DNA of 51,527 nt from Girardia tigrina (lineage: Eukaryota), in assembly GCA_001938485.1 (NCBI GenBank), contig MQRK01171752.1, forward strand, positions 39,449-90,975, given 5' to 3'. A program made the position numbers. This document shows, piece by piece, positions 17,301 to 51,527 of the stretch (within the stretch, counting starts at the first letter, position 1; the number at the start of each line of letters is the position of its first letter).

Positions 17301-20300
17301 CATCAATGTTATATATATATATATATATATATATATTTGAAAATTATTTTGTTAAATCTTTTTTAAGATATTGATTATTGAACATCTTTGCAAGAATATA
17401 GGTAGTGTCAAAGTGGTTCCGATTATATCCAACGTTCAAAATTTTCTCTAAAATAAATCGAAAACGATTTATGGATTGTAAGCTAATGTGGTTTTTAAAT
17501 TTATTGTTACTGGGGGACCGAAGAGAACTAGTAAGTGGAATGCTAACGACCCCGTAGGAGGCCTATCGGGGGACAGGTAGATTCTTTAGTTGGGTGGACC
17601 CTCTAAAGAGCCTACAGCTCAATACCATTCGAAAGAGATTGGAGGCCCACGTTGGAGAGATCAAGGATCTCTGAGTGTAAGGCCAGATTGGACGTACCTT
17701 CGCGCGGTATCCATAGGAAACTTGAGTTCTCTTCTCTAGGCTAAAGCGTCCTGAGTTGAGCCAATGGCTTGTCTGAAAGGTTGGCAGCCGATGTATCGAT
17801 ATTTGACTAGCAAACCAATATCTTGAAGGCCCAGCTTCAAAAACTGAGTTTCGTGGCTGTGGGGAGTAGTGACCCTGCAGTCGCGTGGTCGATTGAATCG
17901 CAATGATCCAAGATTTCTAATCTTGATGAGGGGTGTAGGGAAGCCGGTTTGCCGGTGGAGCTTAGGCATGTGAATTCACGCATGGGGGGGTGTCTTTTGA
18001 TGCCATATGCGTTTCAGAGCTCCTAAAAAGCCTCAGGCTTAATATCTTATAGGATGTGAGGATAACGTTGGAGAGATAAATCGTCATCGCAAAACCCTGA
18101 TTGTGAGCATTCAAATTGAATATCGAAAAAGGTTCTTGATCATTGATTACATTGTAAAAATATAATCTCTTCTGTTTCAAAGGATGAATTTTCTGTTTTA
18201 CCGAAGGGCTTTGATTCACATTATGAGACACAGTTCTATGGATCATTATTGACAAGACACTAAAACCTATTAACAAAGTAAAGCCGTTTCAAATCTTAAA
18301 AATTTTTAGTTGAATTTCAAAACGTTTTGACATTATTATCCAATAATATGTTAAATAATTAAAACAAATCAAAAAGCCATTAACTAACTTGTTTAAAACT
18401 AACAAATATTAAATTATAATTTCTGATGATGTAGTATGAAATTCTGAAATATGTTCAATAATCAATTTCTCTAGAAAGCTTATACAAAATGATTTTTTAT
18501 TATATATTGTGATTATTATCTTTTTATTAGTCTTGTGATCGCTAATGTGATATTTTTGAAAAATAATTTTGTTATAGCTTTTTGGAGAAATTGATTATTG
18601 AACACCCTCCGGAATTTCTTATTTCATATTAACCATGACAATTCAGATCAAAACAAGGTAATATATTAGGTTGAGGAATAAGTTCCCACCGTTTTTTGAA
18701 TTTTTAATCAATTTAATATTTAAATCAAATTTTTTGATGTAATGTTATATGTTATTTGAAAGCTATTGTTTTGCTCTAAAAAAATGGTGTATTTTGTTTT
18801 TTTATTCAAATTAATTTTTGTCGATTTTTAGACCATTGAAATGGAGTGTCAAGTCGACAAAAATGAGCATTTCCGACACGATCTATTGTTTGAGTATAAT
18901 CGAGGCGCCAAAGACGCAGACGCTGCTCGAGAGCTTTGTGCTCTATACGGAGAGGGTGCTATAGCTGATAGAACCGCTCGTGATTGGTTCGCAACATTTA
19001 AAATTGGCAATTTTGACCTCAAGGATGCACCTTGTTCAGGACGACCAAATGAATTCGATGAAGAGCGTTTGAACAACCTTTTGCATGAAGACGCGCGTCA
19101 AACTACTCGAGAATTGGCGGAACAAATGGATTGTGATCAAAAAACTGTCGTGAACCACCTGAAATCAATGGGAAAAGTTCAAAAAATGGGAGCTTGGGTC
19201 CCACATCTTTTGACAAAAAAACAACAAAAACCAGCGATCCACAATTTCGGCGAGTTTACTTGCCCGTCATCGCTCTACTCACGGTCATAAGCAACAATTT
19301 CTTTATCGAATTGTAACGGGTGATGAAAAATGGTGCCTGTACGTCAATATGAAACAGCGCAAAGAATGGCGTAGCCGAGAAGAACAATCGACACCGCGAG
19401 CAAAACAGGATCTTCATCCACGAAAGACAATGCTTTGCGTTTGGTGGGGTTGAGAATGGAAACCAAACAGTGAACGCAGAACTATGTTCAACAGCTGCAT
19501 AGACTCAACGCCGCTATAAGACAAAAATATCCGGATCGACAACATGGCGTTATTTTGCAATACGACAATGCACGTCCTCATATTGCCAGAATGACAAAAG
19601 AAGCAATTCAAACGCTTGGTTGGGAAGTGTTACCGCACCCTCCGTATTCACCTGACTTGGCTCCATCTGATTTTCATCTTTTCCGTTCGCTTCTAACGCT
19701 TTGCGTGGTGTTTCGTTCAACAATAATGAAGAACTGAAAGTTTGGTTGGCTGAATTCTTCGAGTCAAGACCGCGCGATTTCTACCAAAGAGGCATTGAAA
19801 AACTCGTTGAACGTGGGGAAGAAGTCGTGAATAATGGCGGAGATTATATTTGTGATTAATTTGTAGTAACTTTTTTGTTAAAAAATAAAATTTTAATTTT
19901 TCAAAAAACGGCGGAAACTTATTCCTAAACCCAATACTTCATACGTGTTACTCTCGAAATTATTTCTTGACATTGCTATCTATCCTTATCAGACAAAATA
20001 AGCTTCTTTGAAAGACCGTTACGGAAAATATGATCATTTGAGTATATAATTCAGTATATAAAGCTACTTTGGCAGATTTTGCAACAACTAAATCGATTTT
20101 CAATTATATTTTTTATAGGTGAAATGGTAGAAAAGAGACAAACTTTTACGAGAGAGATTATATAAACATACATTTATGGTTTTATTAGTGAATAATAGGG
20201 TCTTGAACAGATGTTAATAACCATTAGTAGAGCAGATCAATCAAGTTAAATTTTCAACGTCTATAAGTTTACATAATACATTTTATATTAATTTATGAGC

Positions 20301-49400: not shown

Positions 49401-51527
49401 CACATTTAAATTTGAATTAAAATTTAATTTAAAAATTTTAAAAATAATAATAATATAAATATAATTTTGATATACACACCTAAATACTGAATTGTGAAAC
49501 CCAGTGGCGGTCGTAACAATTGCTTCATCCAGGCTAATTTAATAATTTCCAGGAAATTATCACCGCCTCCGAGCATGATAACGTGAGGGTCGATGTGACC
49601 GACAAGAACGCAATTTTGAACGGCTTGTATAAGGCTTAAATTCCAATGATTAAGAGCATTTGCAGCTTTAAACGAGGCAAATAATTCGAATACATTCGAT
49701 ACAGAATTCGAAATCGACGAAAGACTTTGAAAACTTATTACGATTATTTTTTTGCTTTTCGACTGACTGAAGAGTTGACTTAAAGAAAAAAATATTATAT
49801 TCAGTTTTACGAGTTGCTATTTTTCCAAATAATTTTCATTGAAACAATTAAAATTTTTCAATTAGAATAACTCACCTCATGATAAAATATTTTATTATTT
49901 ACTTTAATTTCACAAAAATAATAAATCCATTAAAAATGTTTAAAATGTTGCAATGAATATTTGATGAAATTAGTTCACTTAAACAACGGAAATTTTTGAT
50001 TTGTGAATTTTGAAAAATAAAACTTAAGTTACATTTATTTATAATTGTAATCAATTTTTTTGGTATTGTGTAGTGATGAAATATTTTCTCTAAATTACAT
50101 TAATTTTAGTATACTGAATCCATAAAATGATAATTTTAAAAATGATGAAATAAAAAGTTGAATGACAATTTAATTTATTGAAAATAAACTAGTTAATGTT
50201 TTTTATGTAAAATATTAAAGGATCATTATATGAAAGGTTACATTTTTCGCTTTTGGTCTTTGTTTTTAACTCTTCTTAAAACTAAAAAAAGAGTTTTAAG
50301 AAGAAAACAACAATAAAGTCACTTGTTGTTCCGGAATGTTTATGTTAAATCTTTTATTAAAAAAGTAATAAAGTAAAAAGATTTAGCAACTTTTCAACCC
50401 CCCTTCCCCTCGAGTGATGGATTTAAGTGCGAACGATACTACTGATTGTCATAGAGATGATCAAACTTGTCAATGTAATACATGTTCTATCAAATGTGTG
50501 AGTTCTCTTAACAATTATGGTTACTGCTTTTAAAACATTTACTCATTCAAATGTTAATCCTACGTATATTAAATGCTAATTTCGAACAAACTGATTATTA
50601 TTGTAATAAAATTGTATTTCATCTATATCCCCATCAGATTTTGTCATATTCTTTTTAATTTATTTACTTTTACAAAAGGATGCTCTTTATGCAATTTCAA
50701 AATTTCTGTCGTTGAGAGTTTGTACCATTTGTTTTCATAGGTCGAAGCAGGACATTTCGACGACCCCATTTCGAAGGTAGAAATTATTTTTTTAATTTTT
50801 ATAAAGTAGTATTATTAGATTTGAAATGAAATATTTTTTTCTAAATAAAAATTTTTGAAAATAAAGTGAAATAATTTTTATAAATTAAGATTTTTAGGAA
50901 TAAAGTGATATAATTTCTACAAAAGTTAAATGATGCGACTAATAACGATCAATGAACTTCTTTATTAAAAAAATATATGATAAATGTAAAAAGAAATAAC
51001 TGCTTATAAAGAAAAAATGTATTCTATCACTATAAATAACAGTACAAAAATAAAACGAAAGTAATTAACAAGAAAATCGGTTGATATGATAATTTAATTT
51101 AATAATCTAACGTTATTGGTCGGATCCGGATTCGAATAGTCTGCGTAGTGGGTGATTTGTTAATGATAGTTCGAGTAAATAGTACCGTAGACCAGTGCTT
51201 GGTCGCGCTGCGATTGCCTTGAGCCATACAATAATTAAAAAAAATGAAATTAAATAATTAAATAAAAGGTTAAATTAAATCATTTAAATAAAATTTAATT
51301 AAATTAAAGAATTAAATAAAAATATATAAGTATAGTAGTGTAAAAATGGGCGTTCTCCCTCACTACCCACCCCCCCCAGGAACGATAACCATGGCAACGG
51401 TCACGATCACCCTAGCAACGGTCGCGATCACCCTAGCAACGGTCGCGATCACCCTAGCAACGGTTCCGATCACCCTAGCAACGGTTCCGATCACCCTAGC
51501 AACGGTTCCGGGTCACTTGGTAACGGT

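What the first reader, a model, noticed from the sequence alone, without database searches (positions are those of the whole stretch)
20288..49880. Divergent storkhead-box gene hidden across two 14-kb TE-filled introns
Seen: four coding exons totalling ~1.06 kb spread over 29.6 kb, with consistent splice phases. The best-conserved exon (49480-49778) is not in the ORF track, and the two other large exons look like unrelated ORFs until joined (VYNTG+HGYNVMT). Known: the family includes STOX1/2, C. elegans ham-1 (asymmetric neuroblast division) and Drosophila knockout. Inference: a functional, probably under-annotated developmental regulator in this lineage.
[Added by the scan's program, not by the reader: the finding's places include an assembly gap (unread letters, written N; its length is only estimated) at 30010 to 30199, 30339 to 30388. 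Whether the letters on both sides are continuous or in frame is not known: test that first.]
Basis: partly seen in the sequence, partly recalled or inferred. Interest (0 to 1): 0.68.

Follow-up and report, generated by a model that had tools for sequence, protein, structure and literature searches.

The report
Split storkhead-box gene, ends unresolved
Three widely separated exons on the minus strand do encode one intact, divergent member of the storkhead-box (STOX/HAM-1) winged-helix family, an ordinary animal regulator gene whose first micro-exon and 3' end remain unproven.

Summary
The core of the finding holds. Exons 49778-49480, 35282-35025 and 20787-~20347 (minus strand) are real, GT-AG bounded and in consistent phase, and they tile storkhead-box relatives end to end.

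- **Exon 2:** 186 relatives at E<=1e-3. It folds confidently as an alpha/beta domain that Pfam does not cover.
- **Exon 3:** carries the Stork_head winged helix, 25-27.3 bits against a cut-off of 27.
- **Exon 2/3 junction:** read without a break in an unnamed database protein, P0001.
- **Exon 3/4 junction:** read without a break in relatives P0002, P0004, P0007 and P0011.
- **Assembly gaps:** both lie inside a DNA transposon in an intron, about 4.6 kb from any exon.

Three corrections apply.
Similarity to two close relatives and the GC content both drop at a GTAAGA donor at 20346, so the 3' end is open.
- The 5-nt first exon is plausible but unconfirmed.
- "TE-filled" is overstated. Only about 12-20% of each long intron is recognisably transposon-like.

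No expression evidence or annotation could be consulted. This is a new member of a known family and of modest interest.

The parts
49876..49880 (-). Proposed first coding micro-exon (ATG plus 2 nt); plausible, unconfirmed
   Evidence: ATGAG followed by GTGAGT. This is the only GTRAGT site in the 1,749 nt upstream of the exon-2 acceptor, and an ATG sits in the right phase 5 nt before it. It puts the Met 15 residues before the conserved ..ISF. Relatives P0002, P0003, P0004, P0007 and P0009 have their Met within a few residues of that position. Against: the close relative P0001 has no Met at this place.
49779..49875 (-). Proposed 97-nt intron 1 (GT..AG, 19.6% GC)
   Evidence: T-rich tract before the AG acceptor. 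Depends on exon 1 being real.
49480..49778 (-). Exon 2: conserved N-terminal alpha/beta domain of the family (not covered by Pfam)
   Evidence: phmmer found 186 proteins at E<=1e-3; the best non-self hit is P0002, E 9.8e-17, 43% identity. It keeps all 10 invariant or >=90%-conserved family columns (checked). The AlphaFold2 model of this exon alone has pLDDT 87.3 and pTM 0.78. Pfam gives no hit. It is 98% identical to P0001.
35283..49479 (-). Intron 2, 14,197 nt, 24.4% GC
   Evidence: Removed exactly in P0001, which reads ..FTIQYL-G-ELCNFLV... Holds a TE-like stretch at 38581-40284 bounded by a 74% inverted repeat. That stretch contains a 69% copy of part of the GIY-YIG ORF region and a sub-threshold hAT hit.
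35025..35282 (-). Exon 3: most of the Stork_head winged-helix domain
   Evidence: Pfam PF10264: E 2.2e-5, 25.0 bits, profile positions 2-70 of 79, for the exon alone. The stop-to-stop ORF 35017-35340 as it stands scores 27.3 bits against the cut-off of 27. hhalign against the family alignment A1: E 3.2e-4, probability 38.5%, at the right place. 96% identical to P0001.
20788..35024 (-). Intron 3, 14,237 nt as assembled (240 N), 26.4% GC
   Evidence: Contains the DDE_3 transposon with both assembly gaps, and two inverted-repeat-bounded stretches at 23357-23946 and 25970-26727.
20347..20787 (-). Exon 4, conserved part: last strand of the winged helix, the following helix (..TADKLRVAKWL..) and a lineage-specific region
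   Evidence: tblastn with P0002 residues 176-231, E 2e-8. Profile of 4 relatives, E 2.4e-10. P0151 is 86% and P0152 76% identical, up to ..RPSCVKYG only. GC 42.5%. GTAAGA follows at 20346-20341.
20288..20346 (-).
   Evidence: GC 22.4% for 20288-20345. After ..VKYG the window, P0152 and P0151 share nothing.
29884..31313 (+). Tc1/mariner-superfamily DNA transposon inside intron 3, holding both assembly gaps; its state cannot be judged because part is unread
   Evidence: 107-nt terminal inverted repeats, 99% complementary. DDE_3 E 4.9e-16, 59.3 bits. N runs at 30010-30199 and 30339-30388.

Best explanation
The minus strand carries an intact gene of the storkhead-box family, the family of vertebrate STOX1/2 and C. 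elegans HAM-1. Its protein starts at or within a few residues of the beginning of exon 2.

Protein layout:
- An N-terminal domain of about 90 residues with a beta-alpha-alpha-beta-beta-alpha-beta layout (exon 2).
- A Stork_head winged-helix domain, split by an intron just before its last strand (exon 3 plus the first residues of exon 4).
- One further conserved helix.
- A lineage-specific, probably disordered region (rest of exon 4).

Shown here: exon boundaries, phases, order and family membership.

Inferred from the family: the protein acts through its winged helix, by binding DNA or a partner protein, as a regulator of cell division or cell fate. In HAM-1 the N-terminal region has been linked to localisation at the cell cortex.

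The gene model is incomplete at both ends. The 5-nt ATG exon is the best available start but is unconfirmed. The coding sequence most likely leaves exon 4 at the donor G|GTAAGA (exon end 20347) towards exons that are not recognisable in this window. I put that at about 60%. The alternative, about 40%, is that the protein ends near here with an unconserved tail.
For: - **Order and completeness:** the three exon translations, searched one by one, match relatives in order, without overlap or loss. e2 matches P0002 residues 1-99, e3 matches P0004 105-180 and e4 matches P0002 176-231. In alignment A2 exactly one column, the split Gly codon, separates each pair of exons.
- **Exon 2/3 junction:** P0001 (258 aa, unnamed) reads exon 2 directly into exon 3, at 98% and 96% identity.
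- **Exon 3/4 junction:** relatives read ..VYFSGHGYSLLTADKLAVAKWL.. (P0002) and ..VYYTGYGYNIMTTDKQMVAHWL.. (P0011) across it.
- **Family link:** of 13 exon-2 hits scanned with Pfam, 12 have Stork_head at E<=0.01 and 11 exceed the 27-bit cut-off.
- **Window's own domain score:** e3 alone scores 25.0 bits, and the ORF as it stands 27.3 bits.
- **Fold of a relative:** the model of P0011 has pLDDT >=90 over most of residues 11-100 and 112-200. Foldseek's top PDB hits are winged-helix DNA-binding domains (DtxR, PadR/LmrR, RosR, KAT6A WH with DNA), probability 0.94-1.0, about 70-75 columns at 2.6-3.7 A in the best cases.
- **Constraint limited to exons:** identity to P0001, P0151 and P0152 is 76-98% inside the exons. 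It vanishes at the acceptor of e4, at the donor of e3 and at 20347. GC is 38-44% in the exons against 20-26% in most flanks.
- **Family function:** from passages of PMC5489525 (HAM-1 is a STOX1 orthologue with a winged-helix motif) and of bioRxiv 10.1101/504787 (the Storkhead box is a winged helix; the N-terminus and a polyproline motif promote cortical localisation).
Against: - The Stork_head score is marginal (25-27.3 bits against 27).
- hhalign of e3 against the 97-sequence alignment gives only 38.5% probability (E 3.2e-4).
- hhalign of e4 against the same alignment finds nothing (E 0.54). That alignment is dominated by N-terminal fragments.
- The 4-relative profile scores e3 at only E 0.21.
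- No Foldseek hit reaches E<=1e-3 for either model. The winged-helix fold was modelled for a relative, not for the window's protein, because the joined sequence was not built.
- P0001 has no Met where e1 would put one. It carries a 70-residue N-terminal extension that has no match in the window.
- The C-terminal motifs of the long relatives were not found anywhere downstream.
- No expression data or annotation could be consulted.
- The preprint 10.1101/504787 itself says that evidence for a transcriptional role of HAM-1 is lacking.
Confidence: 0.85

Rival explanations
1. One reading: a 353-residue protein from four exons that ends at the TAA at 20290-20288, with no further exons.
For: The frame stays open to 20288. 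Some family members are short: P0010 has 258 aa and P0011 265 aa, though both may be partial. No downstream family-like exon was found in 20 kb. An AT-rich 3' UTR would also explain the GC drop.
Against: The last 19 codons have intron-like GC of 22.4% and follow a GTAAGA donor-like site. They share nothing with P0152's continuation, and P0151 stops at that very point. The nearest full-length relatives have 572-738 aa with conserved C-terminal motifs.
Confidence: 0.35
2. The locus is a decaying or unexpressed copy (pseudogene) whose exons merely still look intact.
For: No expression evidence was available. The start codon depends on a 5-nt exon. The C-terminal part is missing from the window. 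The Stork_head score is low.
Against: Three exons totalling 998 nt have no stop or frame break. All 10 best-conserved family columns of exon 2 are kept. Identity to three close relatives is high within the exons and is lost exactly at exon borders. P0001 reads across the 14-kb intron, as a spliced RNA would.
Confidence: 0.07
3. The true start lies in an upstream exon outside the window, so the ATGAG micro-exon is a coincidence.
For: P0001 has no Met at the matching place and has 70 further N-terminal residues, with Met at positions 1, 18 and 40. None of these residues match the window. Only 1.65 kb of sequence lies upstream of e1 in the window.
Against: Five close full-length or N-terminal relatives start within a few residues of the e1 Met. 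The only strong donor in the 1,749 nt upstream is the one directly after this ATG, and it is in the right phase. P0001's extension may be 5' UTR or intron that happens to be open in frame.
Confidence: 0.3

Closest known systems
Unnamed storkhead-domain proteins P0002/P0004 (737-738 aa), P0007 (572 aa) and P0011 (265 aa) from the representative library
   Same: They share the N-terminal domain (36-43% identity to exon 2), a low-scoring Stork_head domain (31-54 bits) and the ..G.GYN..T.DKL.VA.WL.. helix, all in the same order.
   Different: The long ones carry C-terminal motifs (..LRRCFSL....RDSGFVE....WWTTGF..) that were not found in the window.
C. elegans HAM-1
   Same: A storkhead-box winged-helix protein with a functionally important N-terminal region (passages of PMC5489525 and bioRxiv 10.1101/504787). 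Its domain order is as found here.
   Different: No direct sequence comparison was made, because no tool returned HAM-1 by name. A polyproline motif and nuclear localisation signals were not looked for here. HAM-1's role in asymmetric neuroblast division is known only for the worm.
Vertebrate STOX1/STOX2
   Same: They define the Pfam family PF10264, 'Winged helix Storkhead-box1 domain', which exon 3 matches. They are described as winged-helix transcription factors related to forkhead proteins (abstract of PMC8546287 in the listing; passages of PMC5489525).
   Different: Canonical members among the hits score 88-119 bits on Stork_head, against 25-27 bits here. No named vertebrate protein was compared.
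Drosophila knockout (kko)
   Different: Not verified. In the search for 'storkhead', 'kko' and 'Drosophila', none of the 10 listed papers contains the word storkhead. This is recall only.
Generic winged-helix DNA-binding domains (DtxR, PadR/LmrR, RosR, KAT6A WH)
   Same: They are the best structural matches to the model of relative P0011, with probability up to 1.0 and TM up to 0.61 by target length.
   Different: E-values are only 0.02-0.1 and identity 10-19%. This is a resemblance of fold, not family membership.

Membership tests
Storkhead-box family (Pfam PF10264 Stork_head) | Stork_head winged-helix domain at or above Pfam's gathering score (27 bits) | tested here: met
   Met only marginally. 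Exon 3 alone scores 25.0 bits, E 2.2e-5, profile positions 2-70 of 79. The unspliced stop-to-stop ORF 35017-35340 scores 27.3 bits, E 4.3e-6. The last profile positions lie on exon 4. The joined exon 3+4 test was left out.
Storkhead-box family (Pfam PF10264 Stork_head) | Conserved N-terminal domain shared with proteins that carry Stork_head | tested here: met
   Exon 2 has 186 hits at E<=1e-3. Of 13 hits scanned, 11 have Stork_head above the cut-off, 1 (P0001) is below it and 1 (P0009) has none. The window keeps 10 of 10 invariant or >=90%-conserved columns.
Storkhead-box family (Pfam PF10264 Stork_head) | Same order of parts: N-domain, winged helix, then the ..GYN..T.DKL.VA.WL.. helix | tested here: met
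   tblastn of 7 relatives onto the window and alignment A2.
Storkhead-box family (Pfam PF10264 Stork_head) | Winged-helix three-dimensional fold | tested here: inconclusive
   Modelled for relative P0011, not for the window's protein. The top Foldseek PDB hits are winged-helix domains, but none reaches E<=1e-3.
Storkhead-box family (Pfam PF10264 Stork_head) | Binding of DNA or partner proteins; nuclear or cortical localisation | not testable with these tools
   Known only from experiments on STOX1 and HAM-1.
Long P0002/P0004-type storkhead proteins | C-terminal motifs (..LRRCFSL.., ..RDSGFVE.., ..WWTTGF..) | tested here: not met
   A profile of 4 long relatives and motif searches over all open frames of 12 aa or more found none in the window. 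They may lie on exons outside the window or be absent in this lineage.

The most novel reading that the evidence does not exclude
The family's most conserved module may be not the named Stork_head winged helix but the roughly 90-residue N-terminal alpha/beta domain encoded by exon 2. That domain has no Pfam model and no convincing match among solved structures (best Foldseek E 0.084, probability 0.44; no PDB hit by sequence). In this lineage it stays well conserved while the winged helix has drifted to the edge of detection. On this reading the N-terminal domain, linked to cortical localisation in HAM-1, carries the core function, and this lineage may have a short protein lacking the long C-terminal region.
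Probability: 0.25. Interest if true: 0.4.

Novelty: new member of a known kind. Interest (0 to 1): 0.22.

Why it matters
It matters mainly for annotation. A conserved regulator gene spread over 30 kb or more in a 25%-GC genome is easily missed or split, because its best-conserved exon has no start codon and its family domain is cut by a 14-kb intron. The corrected picture is three firm exons, a provisional start and an open 3' end. That tells an annotator what to look for in RNA data. A side result is that the family's conserved N-terminal domain folds confidently yet has no family model or solved relative. That may interest people working on HAM-1 and STOX proteins.

Tried and rejected
- **Further downstream exons:** tblastn with 7 relatives, a profile of 4 long relatives against 2,862 open frames and loose motif patterns found nothing convincing. 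The one loose pattern match, at 2458-2375, lacks the motif's Gly.
- **P0152's tail and P0001's N-terminal 62 residues:** no match in the window.
- **ESM Atlas for P0001:** its model has pLDDT 0.42 and the matches are meaningless.
- **PDB by sequence:** 0 hits with P0001 and 0 with the family profile.
- **Foldseek of the exon-2 model:** no credible fold match.
- **hhalign of exon 4 against A1:** no match. I attribute this to A1 being dominated by N-terminal fragments.
- **RNA genes:** Rfam 0, tRNA 0.
- **A nameable virus-like stretch:** Pfam on 130 frames of 55 aa or more and 126 frames of 30-54 aa showed no reverse transcriptase, integrase, protease or capsid domain. The only retroelement-type traces are an L1 ORF1-type fragment and a GIY-YIG ORF, both outside the gene. 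I cannot say which stretch the scan's program meant.
- **Bacterial/archaeal genome contigs and the phage, plasmid and E. coli collections:** not used, because they are irrelevant to an animal gene.
- **Considered and rejected: human origin.** The window has 25% GC, mariner/Tc1 content and a Stork_head score far below canonical members.
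Full report
**Setting.** The window has about 25% GC throughout. It carries Tc1/mariner-type transposons and no RNA genes. I take it for an invertebrate animal genome, not human. No tool named the organism.

**The gaps first.** The N runs are exactly 30010-30199 and 30339-30388. Both lie between two 107-nt inverted repeats that are 99% complementary, at 29884-29990 and 31207-31313. 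These repeats flank a DDE_3 transposase frame (E 4.9e-16). So the gaps sit inside a DNA transposon, inside the intron between exons 3 and 4. The nearest exon is about 4.6 kb away. Relatives show no residues missing between those exons. No reading frame depends on the unread letters, and only the intron length is uncertain. The gaps were not filled or looked up.

**The observation.** Reading the minus strand and checking by script gives:

| Exon | Coordinates | Length | Flanks |
|---|---|---|---|
| e1 | 49880-49876 | 5 nt | ATGAG, then GTGAGT |
| e2 | 49778-49480 | 299 nt | AG before, GTGTGT after |
| e3 | 35282-35025 | 258 nt | AG before, GTAACA after |
| e4 | 20787-20288 | 500 nt | AG before, ends TAA |

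Exon 2 is missing from the start-codon-based ORF list. Its frame has no ATG before codon 68 and is closed by a TAG 14 codons upstream of its first full codon.

**Exon by exon, not joined.** Each exon was tested alone.

- **Exon 2 (99 codons).** No Pfam hit. An exhaustive phmmer search gives 186 proteins at E<=1e-3, 18 at <=1e-10 and 1 at <=1e-30. Of 13 of these hits scanned with Pfam, 12 have Stork_head at E<=0.01 and 11 are above the 27-bit cut-off. The window keeps all 10 invariant or nearly invariant columns of the family alignment.
- **Exon 3 (85 codons).** Matches Stork_head positions 2-70 of 79 at E 2.2e-5 and 25.0 bits. The open frame as it stands in the genome reaches 27.3 bits, just over the cut-off.
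- **Exon 4.** Matches P0002 residues 176-231 at E 2e-8 and a profile of four relatives at E 2.4e-10.

Weaker results:
- The same four-relative profile gives exon 3 only E 0.21.
- hhalign of exon 3 against the 97-sequence alignment gives E 3.2e-4 but only 38.5% probability.
- hhalign of exon 4 against that alignment gives nothing (E 0.54).

**The junctions.** The three exons map onto relatives in order and without overlap. In alignment A2 each pair of exons is separated by exactly one column, the split Gly codon.

- **e2/e3.** This junction is read without a break (..FTIQYL-G-ELCNFLV..) in P0001. P0001 is an unnamed 258-aa database protein, 98% and 96% identical to the two exons. It therefore comes either from a spliced RNA or from a genome that lacks this intron. 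Either way it fixes the junction.
- **e3/e4.** This junction is read without a break in relatives..VYFSGHGYSLLTADKLAVAKWL.. in P0002 and ..VYYTGYGYNIMTTDKQMVAHWL.. in P0011. P0152 covers exon 4 at 76% identity. It diverges completely upstream of ..GHGYNVMT, that is, at the acceptor.

**The 3' end.** P0151 (86% identity) and P0152 agree with the window up to ..RPSCVKYG and no further. After that the window reads KNIIRIF.., P0152 reads EKDFLCS.. and P0151 ends. At that point the window has G|GTAAGA (exon end 20347). GC falls from 42.5% (20346-20787) to 22.4% (20288-20345).

The nearest full-length relatives have 572-738 aa, with C-terminal motifs. I could not find those motifs in the remaining 20 kb. 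The gene either continues outside the window or ends here with an unconserved tail. I put these at about 60% and 40%.

**The 5' end.**
- For exon 1: five relatives start within a few residues of the position where exon 1 would put the Met. The only GTRAGT donor in the 1,749 nt upstream directly follows an in-phase ATG.
- Against exon 1: P0001 has no Met there. It carries 70 extra N-terminal residues that match nothing in the window.

Exon 1 is the best available model but is not confirmed.

**What the protein looks like.**
- Exon 2 alone, with 94 relatives as its alignment, folds with pLDDT 87.3 and pTM 0.78 into a beta-alpha-alpha-beta-beta-alpha-beta domain. It has no credible solved counterpart; the best Foldseek hit has E 0.084 and probability 0.44.
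- The relative P0011 models confidently over the same N-terminal domain and over residues 112-200.
- P0011's best PDB matches are winged-helix DNA-binding domains (DtxR, PadR/LmrR, RosR, KAT6A WH bound to DNA). None reaches E<=1e-3.
- The PDB holds no relative by sequence.

[quoted passage not shown] Passages of bioRxiv 10.1101/504787 say several things:
- The Storkhead box is a winged helix.
- HAM-1 is found in both the nucleus and the cortex.
- N-terminal residues and a polyproline motif promote cortical localisation.
- Firm evidence for a transcriptional role of HAM-1 is lacking.

By analogy, the window's protein is a regulator that acts through its winged helix, and its exon-2 domain serves localisation or partner binding. 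None of this was tested here.

**The introns.** 'TE-filled' is overstated.

| Intron | Length | Recognisable TE-like content | Share |
|---|---|---|---|
| 3 (between e3 and e4) | 14,237 nt | the 1.43-kb DDE_3 element; inverted-repeat-bounded stretches 23357-23946 and 25970-26727 | about 20% |
| 2 (between e2 and e3) | 14,197 nt | one stretch at 38581-40284, with a 69% copy of part of the GIY-YIG ORF region and a sub-threshold hAT hit (E 0.0088) | about 12% |

Pfam on 130 frames of 55 aa or more and on 126 shorter frames found nothing else there. Several GC-rich islands stay unexplained. Without a repeat library for this genome, the rest cannot be classed.

**Virus-like stretch.** I found no reverse transcriptase, integrase, protease or capsid domain. 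The only retroelement-type traces are an L1 ORF1-type fragment and a GIY-YIG ORF, both downstream of the gene. They and the DNA transposons are described as they stand.

**Not checked.**
- Names, organisms and contigs of the relatives (unavailable).
- The closed viral and metagenome contig collections.
- Any transcript reads or annotation.
- The Drosophila knockout link: none of the 10 papers listed for 'storkhead', 'kko' and 'Drosophila' contains the word storkhead. It remains recall.

**Verdict.** This is a real, intact, divergent storkhead-box gene: three firm exons, a provisional start and an open 3' end. It is a new member of a known family, and interest is modest.

Noticed in passing
window 5200-6852 (+): Tc1-like DNA transposon with inverted ends of 80-145 nt (94-99%), carrying a weak HTH_Tnp_Tc3_2 hit and a DDE_3 hit (E 3.6e-14). 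The transposase frame is interrupted at least once by a stop. It is only 33% identical over 58 aa to the DDE_3 element in the intron.
   Followed up: partly
window 18664-19936 (+): Mariner-type element of about 1.27 kb with 66-nt inverted ends (80%). HTH_48, Transposase_1 and DDE_3 hits are spread over pieces in two frames, so there are at least two frame changes.
   Followed up: partly
window 3-227 (+): Tail of another mariner-type transposase at the very start of the window. It is 50% identical over 38 aa to the tail of the 19-kb element (E 4e-15) but gets no Pfam hit.
   Followed up: partly
window 15671-16453 (-), and 39893-40121: An open 261-aa frame with a GIY-YIG nuclease domain (E 1.1e-5, 26.1 bits against a cut-off of 22.6). 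By recall, this domain type is found in Penelope-like retroelements. No reverse transcriptase was detected next to it. A 69%-identical inverted copy of 226 nt (15701-15926) of it lies in the gene's intron 2.
   Followed up: partly
window 12189-12386 (+): Short frame matching the L1 ORF1 dsRBD-like domain (Tnp_22_dsRBD, E 7.1e-5, 23.2 bits against 22.2). It is an isolated LINE-type fragment.
   Followed up: no
window 51362-51508: GC-rich tandem array of a 21-nt unit (at least 5 overlapping 63-nt copies, 68-100% identity) at the window's end, upstream of the gene. It contrasts with 17% GC just downstream of it.
   Followed up: no
window 21961-22310, 22651-23110, 34101-34510, 49081-49410: GC-rich islands (mean 40-42%, peaks up to 55%) inside the introns, with no Pfam, Rfam or repeat explanation. 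The last one lies about 70-400 nt downstream of exon 2's donor and is rich in CA/GT runs. They could be unrecognised repeats or regulatory DNA.
   Followed up: partly
window 2248-2311, 17281-17344, 32871-32934, 39015-39078, 41485-41548, 46419-46482: Many (TA)n microsatellites. They account for most of the 'repeat families' and long-range inverted repeats that the repeat finder reports.
   Followed up: no
P0009 (relative, 594 aa): This relative has the N-terminal domain and the ..GYNLLT.EKLAVAKWL.. helix but no winged-helix segment between them, and it gets no Stork_head hit. That looks like a gene model missing the exon that corresponds to exon 3 here, the same annotation hazard as in this window.
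   Followed up: no
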